From a virus (taxonomy: Duplodnaviria > Heunggongvirae > Uroviricota > Caudoviricetes), in the IMG/VR virus record IMGVR_UViG_2534682161_000021, positions 1 through 23,803 of that record: a stretch of DNA of 23,803 bases; one strand, written 5' to 3'. Position numbers and translations under genes: made by a program. The notes beneath the pieces are model-generated. The model had not been told where the DNA came from, did no database searches, and saw only the letters and a list, made by a program, of their open reading frames with translations. Each line of letters begins with the position of its first letter. Within the stretch, counting starts at the first letter, position 1. Shown piece by piece: positions 8,611-12,285 of this stretch.

Positions 8611-8994
8611 CGGTTGTCTCTGCTGGCGCAGCAGGTGCCAGTTGTTCAGGCTGGCGTATAAAGTATAAATAAACTGGTTCCAGTGTAAAGCCCCTACATT
8701 AATGAAATAAAAATCAAACAACAGATTGCTGGGATAAAACACAACGCTTATTATTAAAAGCGATTAGATAAATTAAATTTTAATGTTATGCAAATTTGCC
8801 AGATCACCATAATATCTCGTTTGAAACCACCGAAATAACAACCATATCAATATTGATTATGTTAAAGCGAGTAAATATGGAAAACAACAAATCTGCACAT
8901 TACGCTCCTTTTTTATCTGTGATACTTTTTGTTTTATGCTGTGTGTGGGCATTATTTTTATAAAAATATTTACAGATAAAATAAACCCGCCGAA

Positions 8995-9225
8995 TCAAGT
9001 TAAGTGTGGGTGCATTGAGGATGCCTGACTCATCAGAGGTGGCGAGGGATTTCTCCCTCGCCTGGTCTCTAACTCCTCAGGTTCGTAAGCTGTGAAGACA
9101 GCGACCTCCGTTTGGCTGGTTCGGATTCGTACCTCACAGAGATCTTTCCTCGTTACCAGTGCCGTCACAATGACAGTTAAACAGATGACAATCAGGGCGA
9201 TTAACATCGCCTTATGCTGCTTCAT
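8995..9225 (-). CDS. hok: Hok/Gef-family type I toxin, HokD-like, with a C-terminal extension
   Basis: AAGGAG RBS then MKQHKAMLIALIVICLTVIVTALVTRKDLCEVRIRTSQTEVAVFTAYEPEE, nearly identical to the recalled HokD/RelF. The frame continues 25 codons because the codon after EPEE is TTA rather than a stop. Confidence 0.8.
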   Translation of the reverse strand: MKQHKAMLIALIVICLTVIVTALVTRKDLCEVRIRTSQTEVAVFTAYEPEELETRRGRNPSPPLMSQASSMHPHLT

Positions 9226-9810
9226 AGCCTGCTTCTCCTTGCCTTTCGGCACGTAAGAGGCTAACCTACGTGTGCAAGTCATAGATATGGCCTCAGATTA
9301 ATGTTAGGCGTCTTGCAGGACGCGTAATGTTAACTGGGGCTTTTCTCTATCTGCCGTTGGTATTCATGCCTGAGACAGATAGCCTCAAGCACCCGCAGCA
9401 ATCCTACTTAACTCCCGTCACCTCGCCAATATAAAATCAATCAGAAAGGCGATCCATAAGAACAACAGCAAGACAATAAATTGCCATTACAGCCGCAATA
9501 GCGAGCGCACATTTGAGAACCAGCACGACAACCTCCTGTATTGGACGTACACCAGTCCTGATAAATATGAGGCTGTCTCATCATTGATTCAATAAAACTA
9601 TTGGGAATAGTTTCTGTGATTTTGTTCTGTAGAAATGGAACACAACAACCAGTCACCACCAGCACTTCTTTAAAAACGCCAAGTCCGACGCAAGCTAACC
9701 TTCTAGTCCGCTTTGAACGATGAGCGGAAATTGACATATCTGTTAAAGTGAATGGTTCGTTTTGCAGGGATACTTACACTGCCCCCTGTCAAAATGATAT
9801 ACCGAAGAAT

Positions 9811-9815
9811 AAGAG
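9811..9815. repeat. IS2 target-site duplication, left copy (AAGAG)
   Basis: AAGAG immediately flanks both IS2 ends. Confidence 0.85.
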
Positions 9816-9906
9816 TAGACTGGCCCCCTGAATCTCCAGACAACCAGTATCACTTAAATAAGTGATAGTCTTAATACTAGTTTTTAGACTAGTCATTGGA
9901 GAACAG

Positions 9907-10272
9907 ATGATTGATGTCTTAGGGCCGGAGAAACGCAGACGGCGTACCACACAGGAAAAGATCGCAATTGTTCAGCAGAGCTTTGAACCGGGGATGACGG
10001 TCTCCCTCGTTGCCCGGCAACATGGTGTAGCAGCCAGCCAGTTATTTCTCTGGCGTAAGCAATACCAGGAAGGAAGTCTTACTGCTGTCGCCGCCGGAGA
10101 ACAGGTTGTTCCTGCCTCTGAACTTGCTGCCGCCATGAAGCAGATTAAAGAACTCCAGCGCCTGCTCGGCAAGAAAACGATGGAAAATGAACTCCTCAAA
10201 GAAGCCGTTGAATATGGACGGGCAAAAAAGTGGATAGCGCACGCGCCCTTATTGCCCGGGGATGGGGAGTAA
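9907..10272 (+). CDS. insC: IS2 transposase OrfA (InsC)
   Basis: [56 protein letters not shown]... with an HTH domain; the track start at 9862 is an upstream extension. Confidence 0.9.
10224..10230 (+). promoter_or_regulatory. AAAAAAG slippery heptamer for programmed -1 frameshifting (insC to insD)
   Basis: A6G motif at the insC/insD overlap, the standard IS3-family frameshift signal. Confidence 0.6.
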
Positions 10273-11135
10273 GCTTAGTCAGCCGTTGTCTCCGGGTGTC
10301 GCGTGCGCAGTTGCACGTCATTCTCAGACGAACCGATGACTGGATGGATGGCCGCCGCAGTCGTCACACTGATGATACGGATGTGCTTCTCCGTATACAC
10401 CATGTTATCGGAGAGCTGCCCACGTATGGTTATCGTCGGGTATGGGCGCTGCTTCGCAGACAGGCAGAACTTGATGGTATGCCTGCGATCAATGCCAAAC
10501 GTGTTTACCGGATCATGCGCCAGAATGCGCTGTTGCTTGAGCGAAAACCTGCTGTACCGCCATCGAAACGGGCACATACAGGCAGAGTGGCCGTGAAAGA
10601 AAGCAATCAGCGATGGTGCTCTGACGGGTTCGAGTTCTGCTGTGATAACGGAGAGAGACTGCGTGTCACGTTCGCGCTGGACTGCTGTGATCGTGAGGCA
10701 CTGCACTGGGCGGTGACTACTGGCGGCTTCAACAGTGAAACAGTACAGGACGTCATGCTGGGAGCGGTGGAACGCCGCTTCGGCAACGATCTTCCGTCGT
10801 CTCCAGTGGAGTGGCTGACGGATAATGGTTCATGCTACCGGGCTAATGAAACACGCCAGTTCGCCCGGATGTTGGGACTTGAACCGAAGAACACGGCGGT
10901 GCGGAGTCCGGAGAGTAACGGAATAGCAGAGAGCTTCGTGAAAACGATAAAGCGTGACTACATCAGTATCATGCCCAAACCAGACGGGTTAACGGCAGCA
11001 AAGAACCTTGCAGAGGCGTTCGAGCATTATAACGAATGGCATCCGCATAGTGCGCTGGGTTATCGCTCGCCACGGGAATATCTGCGGCAGCGGGCTTGTA
11101 ATGGGTTAAGTGATAACAGATGTCTGGAAATATAG
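10230..11135 (+). CDS. insD: IS2 transposase OrfB (InsD), DDE catalytic domain
   Basis: 301-aa frame overlapping insC in the -1 frame; recalled InsD sequence. Confidence 0.9.
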
Positions 11136-11146
11136 GGGCAAATCCA

Positions 11147-11151
11147 AAGAG
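11147..11151. repeat. IS2 target-site duplication, right copy (AAGAG)
   Basis: Identical to 9811-9815. Confidence 0.85.
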
Positions 11152-11586: not shown

Positions 11587-12285
11587 ATGAAAAAAGAACT
11601 TGAAACCATACTGCCTGAGTTTGGTGAGGCAATTCGCCCTTACGTTTATAGTTACGTAACAGCAAACAAAAATGCCAATGCCAAGCACGTCCTGTTTATG
11701 GCTGGTTCGCCTGCTGCAGGTAAAACCGAGCTCTTAAATCGTCTTTTAGAACAACATGGCATCACAAACATTGTTCGAATTGATGCTGATGATTTTCGCT
11801 GGTGGTTCCCCTACTACAATGAAGAGAACTCTGTGGACTATCAGAGACCTGCCTCCAGAATGGTCGATTTTATCTACAAAAAAGCGCTATCTGAAGGCTA
11901 TCCCATTGTTATGGACTCTACTTTCTCCAGTATAGGTATTGCGGAGAGAAACTTTGATCTGGCCCTGAAGGCTGGTTATCAGGTAGCACTGAATTACGTC
12001 TATTTTGATCCGGCTTACGCGTGGGTTTTTGCCCAAGCCCGCTCTCGTAAGGTTCCGTTAGAGGTTCTTAAAGCGAACTTTTTCAAGAGCAGAGAGACCA
12101 TTGAACATATGCTCGCGAAATATGCAGGCCTATTTACACTCAATGTTTATCATCGACGGGAAGATCCTGAAAATGATGGTCAGTTCGTGGTCGACTATAC
12201 TCCTAACGTGACCCTTGAAAACTGGACTACCTCCCATAGCTGCCCATATTCAGACGTTAGCGATCTAGCGCATTTAGGTGTATAA
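11587..12285 (+). CDS. zeta-toxin-like P-loop kinase
   Basis: Walker A MAGSPAAGKTEL, followed by RIDADDFR and then MDSTF, the arrangement of zeta/PezT-type kinases. Confidence 0.6.
   Translation: MKKELETILPEFGEAIRPYVYSYVTANKNANAKHVLFMAGSPAAGKTELLNRLLEQHGITNIVRIDADDFRWWFPYYNEENSVDYQRPASRMVDFIYKKALSEGYPIVMDSTFSSIGIAERNFDLALKAGYQVALNYVYFDPAYAWVFAQARSRKVPLEVLKANFFKSRETIEHMLAKYAGLFTLNVYHRREDPENDGQFVVDYTPNVTLENWTTSHSCPYSDVSDLAHLGV

What the first reader, a model, noticed from the sequence alone, without database searches (positions are those of the whole stretch)
8995..9440. HokD-like toxin gene with stop-codon loss giving a 25-residue C-terminal extension
The first 51 residues are nearly identical to the recalled HokD/RelF, but the codon after ...AYEPEE is TTA (Leu) rather than a stop, so the frame continues to 76 aa. 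The added tail would sit on the periplasmic side of a toxin that normally collapses membrane potential and may alter or inactivate it. The upstream leader region (9226-9440), where mok and sok would lie, is intact up to the IS2 insertion; no relBE genes precede it.
Basis: partly seen in the sequence, partly recalled or inferred. Interest (0 to 1): 0.5.

Follow-up and report, generated by a model that had tools for sequence, protein, structure and literature searches.

The report
Stop-codon-loss allele of prophage hok toxin
This is a complete hok/sok-type toxin-antitoxin locus in a lambdoid prophage whose toxin gene has lost its stop codon through one A-to-T change, a rare but real allele that most likely disarms the toxin, so it is an ordinary decaying toxin gene rather than a new system.

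Summary
On the minus strand, 9225..8995 encodes a 76-aa Hok. Residues 1-51 are 49/51 identical to K-12 HokD. Codon 52 is TTA (9072-9070), where close relatives have TAA.

It is not a sequencing error:
- The 661-bp region is 100% identical in 4 complete E. coli genomes, where PGAP flags it as a pseudogene.
- The exact 95-aa in-frame Mok-Hok product is on 53 contigs.
- 2 of 119 IMG/VR copies carry TTA; 117 keep TAA or TGA.
- An independent TAA>TCA loss exists in the relBE-linked hokD.

The locus is otherwise a full hok/sok module:
- leader (Rfam sok model, 108 bits)
- predicted 5'-3' end pairing (tac/fbi)
- GC stem-loop just after the old stop
- antisense Sok promoter and hairpin on the plus strand

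In plasmid R1, six substitutions that abolish the hok stop codon were recovered as toxicity suppressors, and a C-terminal FLAG tag abolishes toxicity. The likeliest reading is therefore a natural loss-of-function allele.

My added inference: the processed, translatable mRNA should end at that stem-loop, upstream of the new TGA. The active message would then be a non-stop mRNA.

IS2 lies at 9816-11146, not at 9440. Interest is low.

The parts
9401..9429 (-). Putative hok promoter: -35 TTGGCG (9429-9424), 17-nt spacer, -10 TAGGAT (9406-9401)
   Evidence: Placed by spacing to the mRNA 5' end defined by the Rfam match. The consensus scan missed it. Position 9403 is G in the window and A (TAGAAT) in 98 of 110 IMG/VR copies. 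Inferred, not shown.
9226..9394 (-). hok mRNA leader. The 5' end is at 9394. It holds tac (9394-9383, GGGUGCUUGAGG), the Sok-target region and the mok start (ATG 9282-9280, preceded by GAGG).
   Evidence: Rfam RF01794 match at 9394..9220, 108.1 bits against a gathering score of 59, covering the full model 1-157, on the hok-sense strand. The in-frame mok start comes from ORF listing and translation.
8995..9225 (-). hok ORF, 76 codons plus TGA. Reading from the in-frame mok start at 9282 gives 95 aa.
   Evidence: Pfam HOK_GEF 75.7 bits over residues 6-47. 49/51 identity to K-12 HokD.
9070..9072 (-). Former stop codon, now TTA (Leu52). The change is A>T at 9071.
   Evidence: Relatives have TAA at this position. 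Among IMG/VR copies matching the pattern: 113 TAA, 4 TGA, 2 TTA. In complete E. coli genomes the exact 61-mer with TTA occurs in 4 of 5426.
9041..9062 (-). GC-rich stem-loop GGCGAGGGA-GAAA-UCCCUCGCC. It is the homologue of the terminal 'road-block' stem of the processed R1 hok mRNA and lies inside the extended ORF.
   Evidence: Folds. In R1 the stop is at 330-332 and the stem at 342-359. The R1 truncated mRNA is 361 nt and ends at the base of this stem (PMC1635323; PMC9841398). The equivalence is by position and is inferred.
9008..9020 (-). fbi element CCUCAAUGCACCC, complementary to the mRNA 5' end. It also lies inside the extended ORF.
   Evidence: The minimum-free-energy fold of the 423-nt transcript pairs nt 1-12 with nt 375-387. 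z-score -6.8 against shuffles.
8972..9002 (-). Degenerate hok terminator. The 5' arm has changed from CCCGC to CTTGA, and this change also creates the new TGA stop at 8997-8995.
   Evidence: Hairpin energy is -3.0 kcal/mol here against -11.8 for the majority allele. The changes are present in 3-4 of 110 IMG/VR copies. They are shared with the TAA-bearing strain 357900.
9239..9345 (+). Putative sok gene: promoter -35 TTGCCT (9239-9244), 17-nt spacer, -10 TAACCT (9262-9267). The RNA spans about 9273-9345, with a roughly 15-nt single-stranded 5' tail complementary to the mok start, then a long hairpin and a U-tract.
   Evidence: Sequence and fold, -31 kcal/mol. Both hexamers are invariant in the 4-sequence alignment, whereas the tail/mok-start segment is the most variable part of the locus. 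The architecture matches R1 Sok: 64 nt, with an 11-nt tail plus a stem-loop (PMC1635323). Not tested experimentally.
9816..11146 (+). IS2 (context only, not part of the locus), with a 5-bp target duplication AAGAG at 9811-9815 and 11147-11151.
   Evidence: NCBIfam: IS2 TnpA 275.8 bits and IS2 TnpB 727.6 bits. The empty site is seen in L001-L004 and L008-L013.

Best explanation
[quoted passage not shown] A single A>T transversion at 9071 has destroyed the TAA stop shared by hok and the in-frame mok. I read it as a natural loss-of-function (toxicity-suppressor) allele, that is, a pseudogenising hit on the toxin.

Shown:
- the mutation
- its presence in many independent assemblies at very low frequency
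- an otherwise intact RNA architecture

From published R1 work: stop-codon abrogation and C-terminal tagging abolish Hok toxicity.

Inferred mechanism:
1. Only the 3'-processed mRNA is translated. By homology with R1 it should end at the base of the stem-loop at 9062-9041.
2. The new TGA (8997-8995) lies about 45 nt beyond that end.
3. Ribosomes would therefore add about 10 codons (LETRRGRNPS), melt the protective terminal hairpin and stall at the 3' end of a non-stop message.
4. That would lead to tmRNA tagging or ArfA/ArfB release, and probably to faster mRNA decay.
5. Any full 76-aa product carries a hydrophilic tail on the periplasmic C-terminal domain and is expected to be non-toxic.

In silico, the A>U change also converts an A.G mismatch into a U.G pair under the terminal hairpin. 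This stabilises the inert full-length fold by about 4 kcal/mol.
For: The mutation and its spread.
- The mutation is seen against the closest relatives.
- Independent assemblies carry it.
- Frequency: 4 of 5426 complete genomes and 2 of 119 IMG/VR copies, while 117 of 119 keep TAA or TGA. The stop is therefore normally conserved.
- PGAP annotates all four complete-genome copies as pseudogenes.

Published R1 data.
- Six substitutions abrogating the hok stop codon were recovered as loss-of-function suppressors, giving a 17-aa longer protein. An 8-aa C-terminal FLAG tag abolishes toxicity (PMC9841398).
- I reproduced the 17-aa extension. Its stop at 381-383 lies beyond the 361-nt processed end.

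Architecture of this locus.
- Leader match.
- tac/fbi pairing in the MFE fold, z = -6.8.
- 5' refolding in the truncated form.
- Sok promoter and hairpin.

Extra rare changes, consistent with decay.
- hok -10 hexamer changed from TAGAAT to TAGGAT.
- Terminator hairpin weakened from -11.8 to -3.0 kcal/mol.

Other inactivation routes at hokD-type loci.
- Independent TAA>TCA in the relBE-linked hokD, in 34 index blocks.
- IS1203 in the leader.
- Leader replaced by relBE in K-12.
Against: - No toxicity or RNA data exist for this allele or for any hokD-type stop-loss allele. The R1 extension has a different sequence and length.
- The processed 3' end of hokD-type mRNAs was not mapped here. It is assumed from R1.
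- The TTA allele occurs on several mok/hok backgrounds (P0121, P0125, P0128, P0129) and in strains from several continents. It has therefore persisted and recombined. That fits neutrality, but it does not exclude a retained or altered function.
- Tolerance of Hok to other C-terminal additions is not established beyond the FLAG tag and the R1 17-aa extension.
- The weakened terminator could change which transcript ends are made.
Confidence: 0.7

Rival explanations
1. The extended Hok (76 aa, or 95 aa from mok) is made and is still a functional membrane toxin, possibly with altered potency or regulation. The allele would then be a working variant rather than a pseudogene.
For: - The HOK_GEF domain, the transmembrane segment, Cys30 and the Tyr47 UACG motif are all intact.
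- The regulatory RNA elements and sok look intact.
- The allele persists in more than 100 index blocks and on several backgrounds.
- In a survey, 42 of 45 diverse Hok homologues were toxic. Conserved residues mutated singly to alanine did not remove toxicity, so the peptide tolerates sequence change (bioRxiv 10.1101/2025.08.07.668861).
Against: - In R1, stop-codon loss and an 8-aa C-terminal tag both abolish toxicity (PMC9841398).
- 117 of 119 sampled copies keep a stop at this codon, including TAA>TGA changes.
- The tail is simply the translated 3' UTR, whose sequence is constrained by RNA structure (stem-loop, fbi).
- The new stop lies beyond the expected end of the translatable mRNA.
Confidence: 0.15
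2. The relevant effect is on the RNA, not the protein. A>U at 9071 strengthens the helix beneath the terminal hairpin. This locks or stabilises the inert full-length fold, or slows 3' trimming, so that less active mRNA is made. The stop loss would be incidental.
For: - The change turns an A.G mismatch into a U.G pair in helix 322-328/357-363.
- Full-length MFE goes from -157.1 to -161.3 kcal/mol. The local hairpin goes from -22.2 to -25.3 kcal/mol.
- In R1, single substitutions that shift the balance between closed and open conformers suppress toxicity (PMC9841398).
Against: - The evidence is prediction only.
- Other stop-loss alleles (TCA, CAA, GAA, TAY) change other positions or bases of the codon and would not make the same pair.
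- This reading is not exclusive of the main explanation.
Confidence: 0.1
3. The TTA is a sequencing or assembly artefact.
For: None found. PGAP's note 'incomplete; missing C-terminus' could be misread that way.
Against: - The sequence is identical in 4 complete genomes from different laboratories and continents.
- It is also identical in 2 IMG/VR contigs and in dozens of NCBI, ENA and Logan assemblies, including E. coli M863.
Confidence: 0.01

Closest known systems
hokD (relF) of the E. coli K-12 Qin prophage
   Same: - The toxin is 49/51 identical over residues 1-51.
- The downstream neighbourhood is the same: a DUF968/ydfU gene, then an antiterminator gene, in a DicF-carrying lambdoid prophage.
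- The 3' UTR is homologous from 9239 to 8983 (93%).
   Different: - K-12 hokD lies directly after relBE and shares nothing upstream of about 14 nt before the ATG. It has no tac, mok or sok region.
- The window has the full leader and sok, no relBE, and no stop codon at position 52.
hok/sok of plasmid R1, and its experimentally selected stop-codon suppressor mutants
   Same: - The architecture is the same: leader with tac, upstream mok, Sok antisense with a 5' tail plus hairpin, a GC stem-loop right after the stop, and fbi near the 3' end.
- In R1, six stop-codon substitutions gave a 17-aa longer, non-toxic product (PMC9841398). The window allele is the natural counterpart.
   Different: - The Hok proteins are divergent.
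- mok is in frame with hok here and out of frame in R1. This rests on my recalled R1 sequence and on the plasmid variant.
- The extension is 25 aa with an unrelated sequence.
- The locus is prophage-borne.
- The terminator is degenerate.
hokW/mokW-type 'phage maintenance' loci of Stx-converting and other lambdoid phages
   Same: The 61-nt segment around the stop matches 22 phage records at 95-98%. They are annotated MokW, gef/phage maintenance protein or host killer protein. hok genes are reported as enriched in prophages (bioRxiv 10.1101/2025.08.07.668861).
   Different: None of the 22 phage records carries the TTA version. Their best identity is 98.4%, that is, at least one mismatch over the 61-mer.
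Inactivated chromosomal hok loci of E. coli (Pedersen and Gerdes 1999, cited from memory and via PMC1635323 ref. 32)
   Same: The theme is the same: chromosomal or prophage hok loci are often disabled by IS elements, point mutations or rearrangements. Seen here: IS1203 in the leader, an IS about 90 nt upstream of the hok mRNA start in M863, and leader loss in K-12.
   Different: The lesion here is loss of the stop codon. I did not find this route described for natural alleles in the papers I searched.

Membership tests
[quoted passage not shown] | Toxin with a Hok/Gef domain (N-terminal transmembrane segment, conserved Cys and Glu in the C-terminal part) | tested here: met
   Pfam PF01848: 75.7 bits against a cut-off of 22, covering profile positions 1-42 of 42.
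[quoted passage not shown] | Structured hok mRNA leader containing the Sok target | tested here: met
   Rfam RF01794: 108.1 bits against a gathering score of 59, full-length match 9394..9220 on the hok strand.
[quoted passage not shown] | Upstream overlapping reading frame (mok) to which hok translation is coupled | tested here: met
   ATG at 9282 with GAGG upstream, 19 codons, in frame with hok. The 70-aa in-frame form is the common database form, on 999 or more contigs. Coupling itself was not tested.
[quoted passage not shown] | Long-range 5'-3' pairing (tac/fbi) in the full-length mRNA | tested here: met
   The MFE fold pairs nt 1-12 with nt 375-387; z = -6.8. This is prediction only. The paired positions are invariant in 81 unique relatives, so there is no covariation to count.
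[quoted passage not shown] | GC-rich stem-loop after the stop codon that halts 3' trimming and defines the active mRNA | tested here: inconclusive
   The stem-loop is present at 9062-9041, at the position equivalent to R1. The processing site was not mapped.
[quoted passage not shown] | Antisense Sok RNA with its own promoter, a single-stranded 5' tail and a terminator hairpin | tested here: inconclusive
   Conserved hexamers TTGCCT/TAACCT with a 17-nt spacer, and a -31 kcal/mol hairpin plus U-tract. The consensus promoter scan did not call it. There are no expression data.
[quoted passage not shown] | Toxin ORF of about 50 codons ending right after the conserved C-terminus | tested here: not met
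   Codon 52 is TTA, so the ORF runs to 76 codons. This is the lesion itself. It argues against 'functional member', not against homology.
[quoted passage not shown] | Membrane-depolarising toxicity repressed by Sok | not testable with these tools
   Needs expression assays.
hokD (relF) in the strict K-12 sense | Third gene of the relBEF operon, lacking its own leader, mok and sok | tested here: not met
   There is no relBE. The full leader and sok are present. The name hokD that PGAP gives to the relatives reflects protein identity only.

The most novel reading that the evidence does not exclude
The stop loss may re-route toxin expression rather than simply kill the gene. The translatable, 3'-trimmed hok mRNA would then lack any in-frame stop. 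Hok output would pass through ribosome rescue (tmRNA tagging and proteolysis, or ArfA/ArfB release). The toxin would accumulate only when rescue or proteolysis capacity is compromised.

In addition, any ribosome on the full-length mRNA would read through the fbi element and open the 5'-3' clamp.

A related possibility is that the detoxified locus is retained as a Sok-producing 'anti-addiction' module against incoming related hok loci. Recurrent independent stop losses (TTA, TCA and others) would then reflect selection rather than decay.
Probability: 0.08. Interest if true: 0.55.

Novelty: new member of a known kind. Interest (0 to 1): 0.2.

Why it matters
The main value is for annotation. The 76-aa and 95-aa 'Hok/Gef family protein' entries in public databases are stop-loss alleles of a prophage hokD-type locus and should be treated as probable pseudogenes.

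It also gives a natural counterpart to the stop-codon suppressor mutants selected in plasmid R1.

It raises one small testable point. In both R1 and this allele the next in-frame stop lies beyond the 3' end of the processed, translatable mRNA. Stop-loss hok alleles should therefore be non-stop messages, and this may be the real reason they are harmless.

Tried and rejected
- The consensus promoter/terminator scan of 8850-9850 called none of the hok or sok signals and no hok terminator. The hexamers are too weak for its thresholds and the terminator arm is degenerate, so placement rests on homology.
- An exact-pattern scan of genome contigs (one genome per species) returned nothing. It gave no information on prevalence.
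- I suspected that 98.4% hits labelled 'Hok/Gef family protein' were further stop-loss alleles. Three that I checked have the normal stop: two are cut by IS1203 in the leader and one is an ordinary copy.
- Sequencing error was rejected (see the rivals).
- 'Family-wide extended C-terminus' was rejected. Nearly all of the 609 homologues cover only 66-67% of the query, that is, they end at EPEE.
- Several other 'extended' database proteins (P0005-P0007, P0009, P0010) are frameshifted single-contig sequences and were not counted as real alleles.
- Covariation support for tac/fbi could not be obtained, because the paired columns are invariant in the 81 unique relatives.
- The plasmid copy used as the R1 stand-in (L134) has a leader a few nt shorter than the published numbering. 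I therefore anchored positions on the stop codon.

Full report
**What is there**

On the minus strand, 9225..8995 is a 76-codon ORF. Residues 1-51 are 49/51 identical to the HokD of K-12-type strains, differing at Q4H and G37S. The Pfam Hok/Gef domain is complete (75.7 bits). Codon 52 is TTA (9072-9070).

I aligned 661 nt with the two closest relatives that PGAP annotates as intact hokD: strain 357900 (97% identical) and strain 503025 (95.6%). Both have TAA in that codon, so the change is a single A>T transversion at 9071. An ATG at 9282, preceded by GAGG, opens a 19-codon upstream frame that is in frame with hok. It therefore shares hok's stop, and reading from there gives 95 aa. The corresponding 70-aa in-frame form is the commonest database form of these proteins.

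**It is real, rare and recurrent**

- The 661-nt region is 100% identical in four complete E. coli genomes: cattle in the USA, seawater in the Galapagos, and food and cattle in Korea. In all four, PGAP marks the gene as a pseudogene, 'missing C-terminus'.
- The exact 95-aa product is on 53 contigs and in 105 index blocks. The 76-aa product is on 7 contigs. Deposited names include 'hok/gef family protein [E. coli M863]' and 'phage maintenance protein'.
- A 61-mer centred on the codon matches exactly in 4 of 5426 complete genomes, whereas 4302 genomes hold a homologous segment.
- Among 119 IMG/VR hits to a pattern with the codon left free, 113 have TAA, 4 TGA and 2 TTA. The two TTA copies are identical to the window over 474 nt.
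- None of 22 matching phage records carries TTA.
- Other stop-loss alleles exist. TAA>TCA occurs in the relBE-linked K-12-type hokD; it is in 34 index blocks and I confirmed it in the DNA. Poorly supported CAA, GAA and TAY versions are also present.
- The TTA codon occurs on several mok/hok backgrounds. The allele has therefore persisted long enough to recombine.

**The locus around it**

Rfam's sok model matches 9394..9220 at 108 bits against a gathering score of 59. The match is on the hok-sense strand and runs from the predicted mRNA 5' end to the hok ATG. What it recognises is therefore the hok leader.

Folding the 423-nt transcript (9394..8972) gives an MFE structure in which nt 1-12 (GGGUGCUUGAGG) pair with nt 375-387 (CCUCAAUGCACCC). 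This is the tac/fbi clamp, with z = -6.8. Cutting the RNA after the GC stem-loop at 9062-9041 makes the 5' end refold locally.

On the plus strand there is a sok-like unit. The hexamers are TTGCCT and TAACCT with a 17-nt spacer (9239-9267), and both are invariant among the aligned relatives. The RNA of about 72 nt (about 9273-9345) has a single-stranded 5' tail complementary to the mok start, a -31 kcal/mol hairpin and a U-tract. The tail/mok-start segment is the most variable part of the locus.

K-12 hokD shares homology only from 9239 downward, because relBE replaces the leader there. The window therefore carries the complete version of the locus.

The context is a Qin-like lambdoid prophage:
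- DUF968, RusA and Q antiterminator genes downstream
- a zeta-toxin family gene upstream
- DicF at 18984-19035

The window equals the prophage of the four complete genomes except for an IS2 at 9816-11146 with an AAGAG target duplication. IS2 lies 421 nt upstream of the hok mRNA start, not at 9440.

**How it most likely works**

In plasmid R1, saturation selection for loss of hok toxicity recovered six substitutions that abrogate the hok stop codon. These give a 17-aa longer protein. An 8-aa C-terminal FLAG tag also abolishes toxicity (PMC9841398). That makes loss of toxicity the default expectation for this allele.

I add one inference. R1 hok mRNA is translated only after 3' exonucleases remove the last 39 nt and stop at the base of the GC stem-loop. 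The forms are 398 and 441 nt before trimming and 361 nt after (PMC1635323). Mutations that weaken this terminal stem remove the truncated form (PMC9841398). Anchoring on the R1 stop at 330-332, the stem is at 342-359 and the stop of the 17-aa extension is at 381-383, beyond the processed end.

In the window the old stop is at nt 323-325, the homologous stem at 333-354 and the new TGA at 398-400. If processing is conserved, the active mRNA has no in-frame stop. Ribosomes would add about ten residues (LETRRGRNPS), unwind the protective hairpin and stall at the 3' end. The expected outcome is tmRNA tagging or ArfA/ArfB release, and a less stable message. The 76-aa protein would be made only from the full-length mRNA, which in this family is not translated. 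I found no paper linking hok stop loss to non-stop rescue.

In silico, A>U also turns an A.G mismatch into a U.G pair under the terminal hairpin. The full-length MFE changes from -157.1 to -161.3 kcal/mol, and the local hairpin from -22.2 to -25.3 kcal/mol. This is a possible second, RNA-level effect.

**Other rare changes on this allele**

- The hok -10 hexamer is TAGGAT instead of TAGAAT (6 of 110 copies).
- Three substitutions in the 5' arm of the terminator weaken the hairpin from -11.8 to -3.0 kcal/mol. They also create the TGA that ends the extended ORF.
- The terminator changes are shared with the TAA-bearing strain 357900. They therefore predate the stop loss.

These changes fit a locus under relaxed constraint. 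They do not prove it.

**Verdict**

The feature is a rare natural stop-loss allele of a well-known prophage hok/sok locus. It is already deposited and flagged as a pseudogene, and it belongs to a class of mutation already shown to detoxify Hok in R1. The non-stop-mRNA consequence is a modest, testable addition. Interest is low (0.2).

Noticed in passing
window 9437-9526 (minus strand): A 29-aa hydrophobic ORF, MLVLKCALAIAAVMAIYCLAVVLMDRLSD. It has a GTG start 7 nt after AGGAGG and ends 8 nt before the hok -35. It is intact in 27 of 29 homologous IMG/VR copies. Of 15 variable sites, 8 are third-position and synonymous. It has no Pfam or NCBIfam hit and is not annotated by PGAP. It is a candidate small membrane peptide that travels with the hok module.
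   Followed up: partly
window 9816-11146: A complete 1331-bp IS2 with a 5-bp AAGAG target duplication, absent from otherwise identical prophages. E. coli M863 (L014) carries the same TTA hok allele but has a different IS at the position equivalent to 9485-9490, about 90 nt upstream of the hok mRNA start.
   Followed up: partly
L135 and L137 (E. coli E2863, RM9131), locus positions 1-392: IS1203 is inserted in the leader of a hokD-type locus, leaving an N-terminally shortened 'Hok/Gef family protein' with a normal stop. This is a different inactivation route at the same kind of locus.
   Followed up: no
window 8972-9002 (minus strand): The 5' arm of the hok terminator has changed from CCCGC to CTTGA. 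The hairpin weakens from -11.8 to -3.0 kcal/mol. The changes are rare (3-4 of 110 copies) and shared with TAA-bearing strain 357900. The effect on transcript ends is unknown.
   Followed up: partly
window 9085-9087 (minus strand; Tyr47 codon in GCUUACGAA): A UACG motif sits at Tyr47, five codons before the lost stop. A-to-I editing by TadA that recodes Tyr to Cys is reported at the equivalent position of the hokC, hokD and hokE mRNAs (bioRxiv 10.1101/2025.08.07.668861). I did not examine whether the nearby change affects it.
   Followed up: no
window 18984-19035 (+): DicF sRNA, a full-length Rfam match at 76.7 bits. It marks the prophage as Qin/dicB-type.
   Followed up: no
window 9220-9394: The Rfam family named 'sok antitoxin' (RF01794) matches the hok-sense strand from the mRNA 5' end to the hok ATG. 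A hit to it marks the hok leader, not the strand that encodes Sok.
   Followed up: yes
window 11587-12285 (+), by correspondence with L001: A zeta-toxin family gene and two hypothetical genes lie just beyond IS2. They are part of a variable cargo slot next to hok. In relatives the same slot holds AbiH or DUF1627/DUF977 genes.
   Followed up: no
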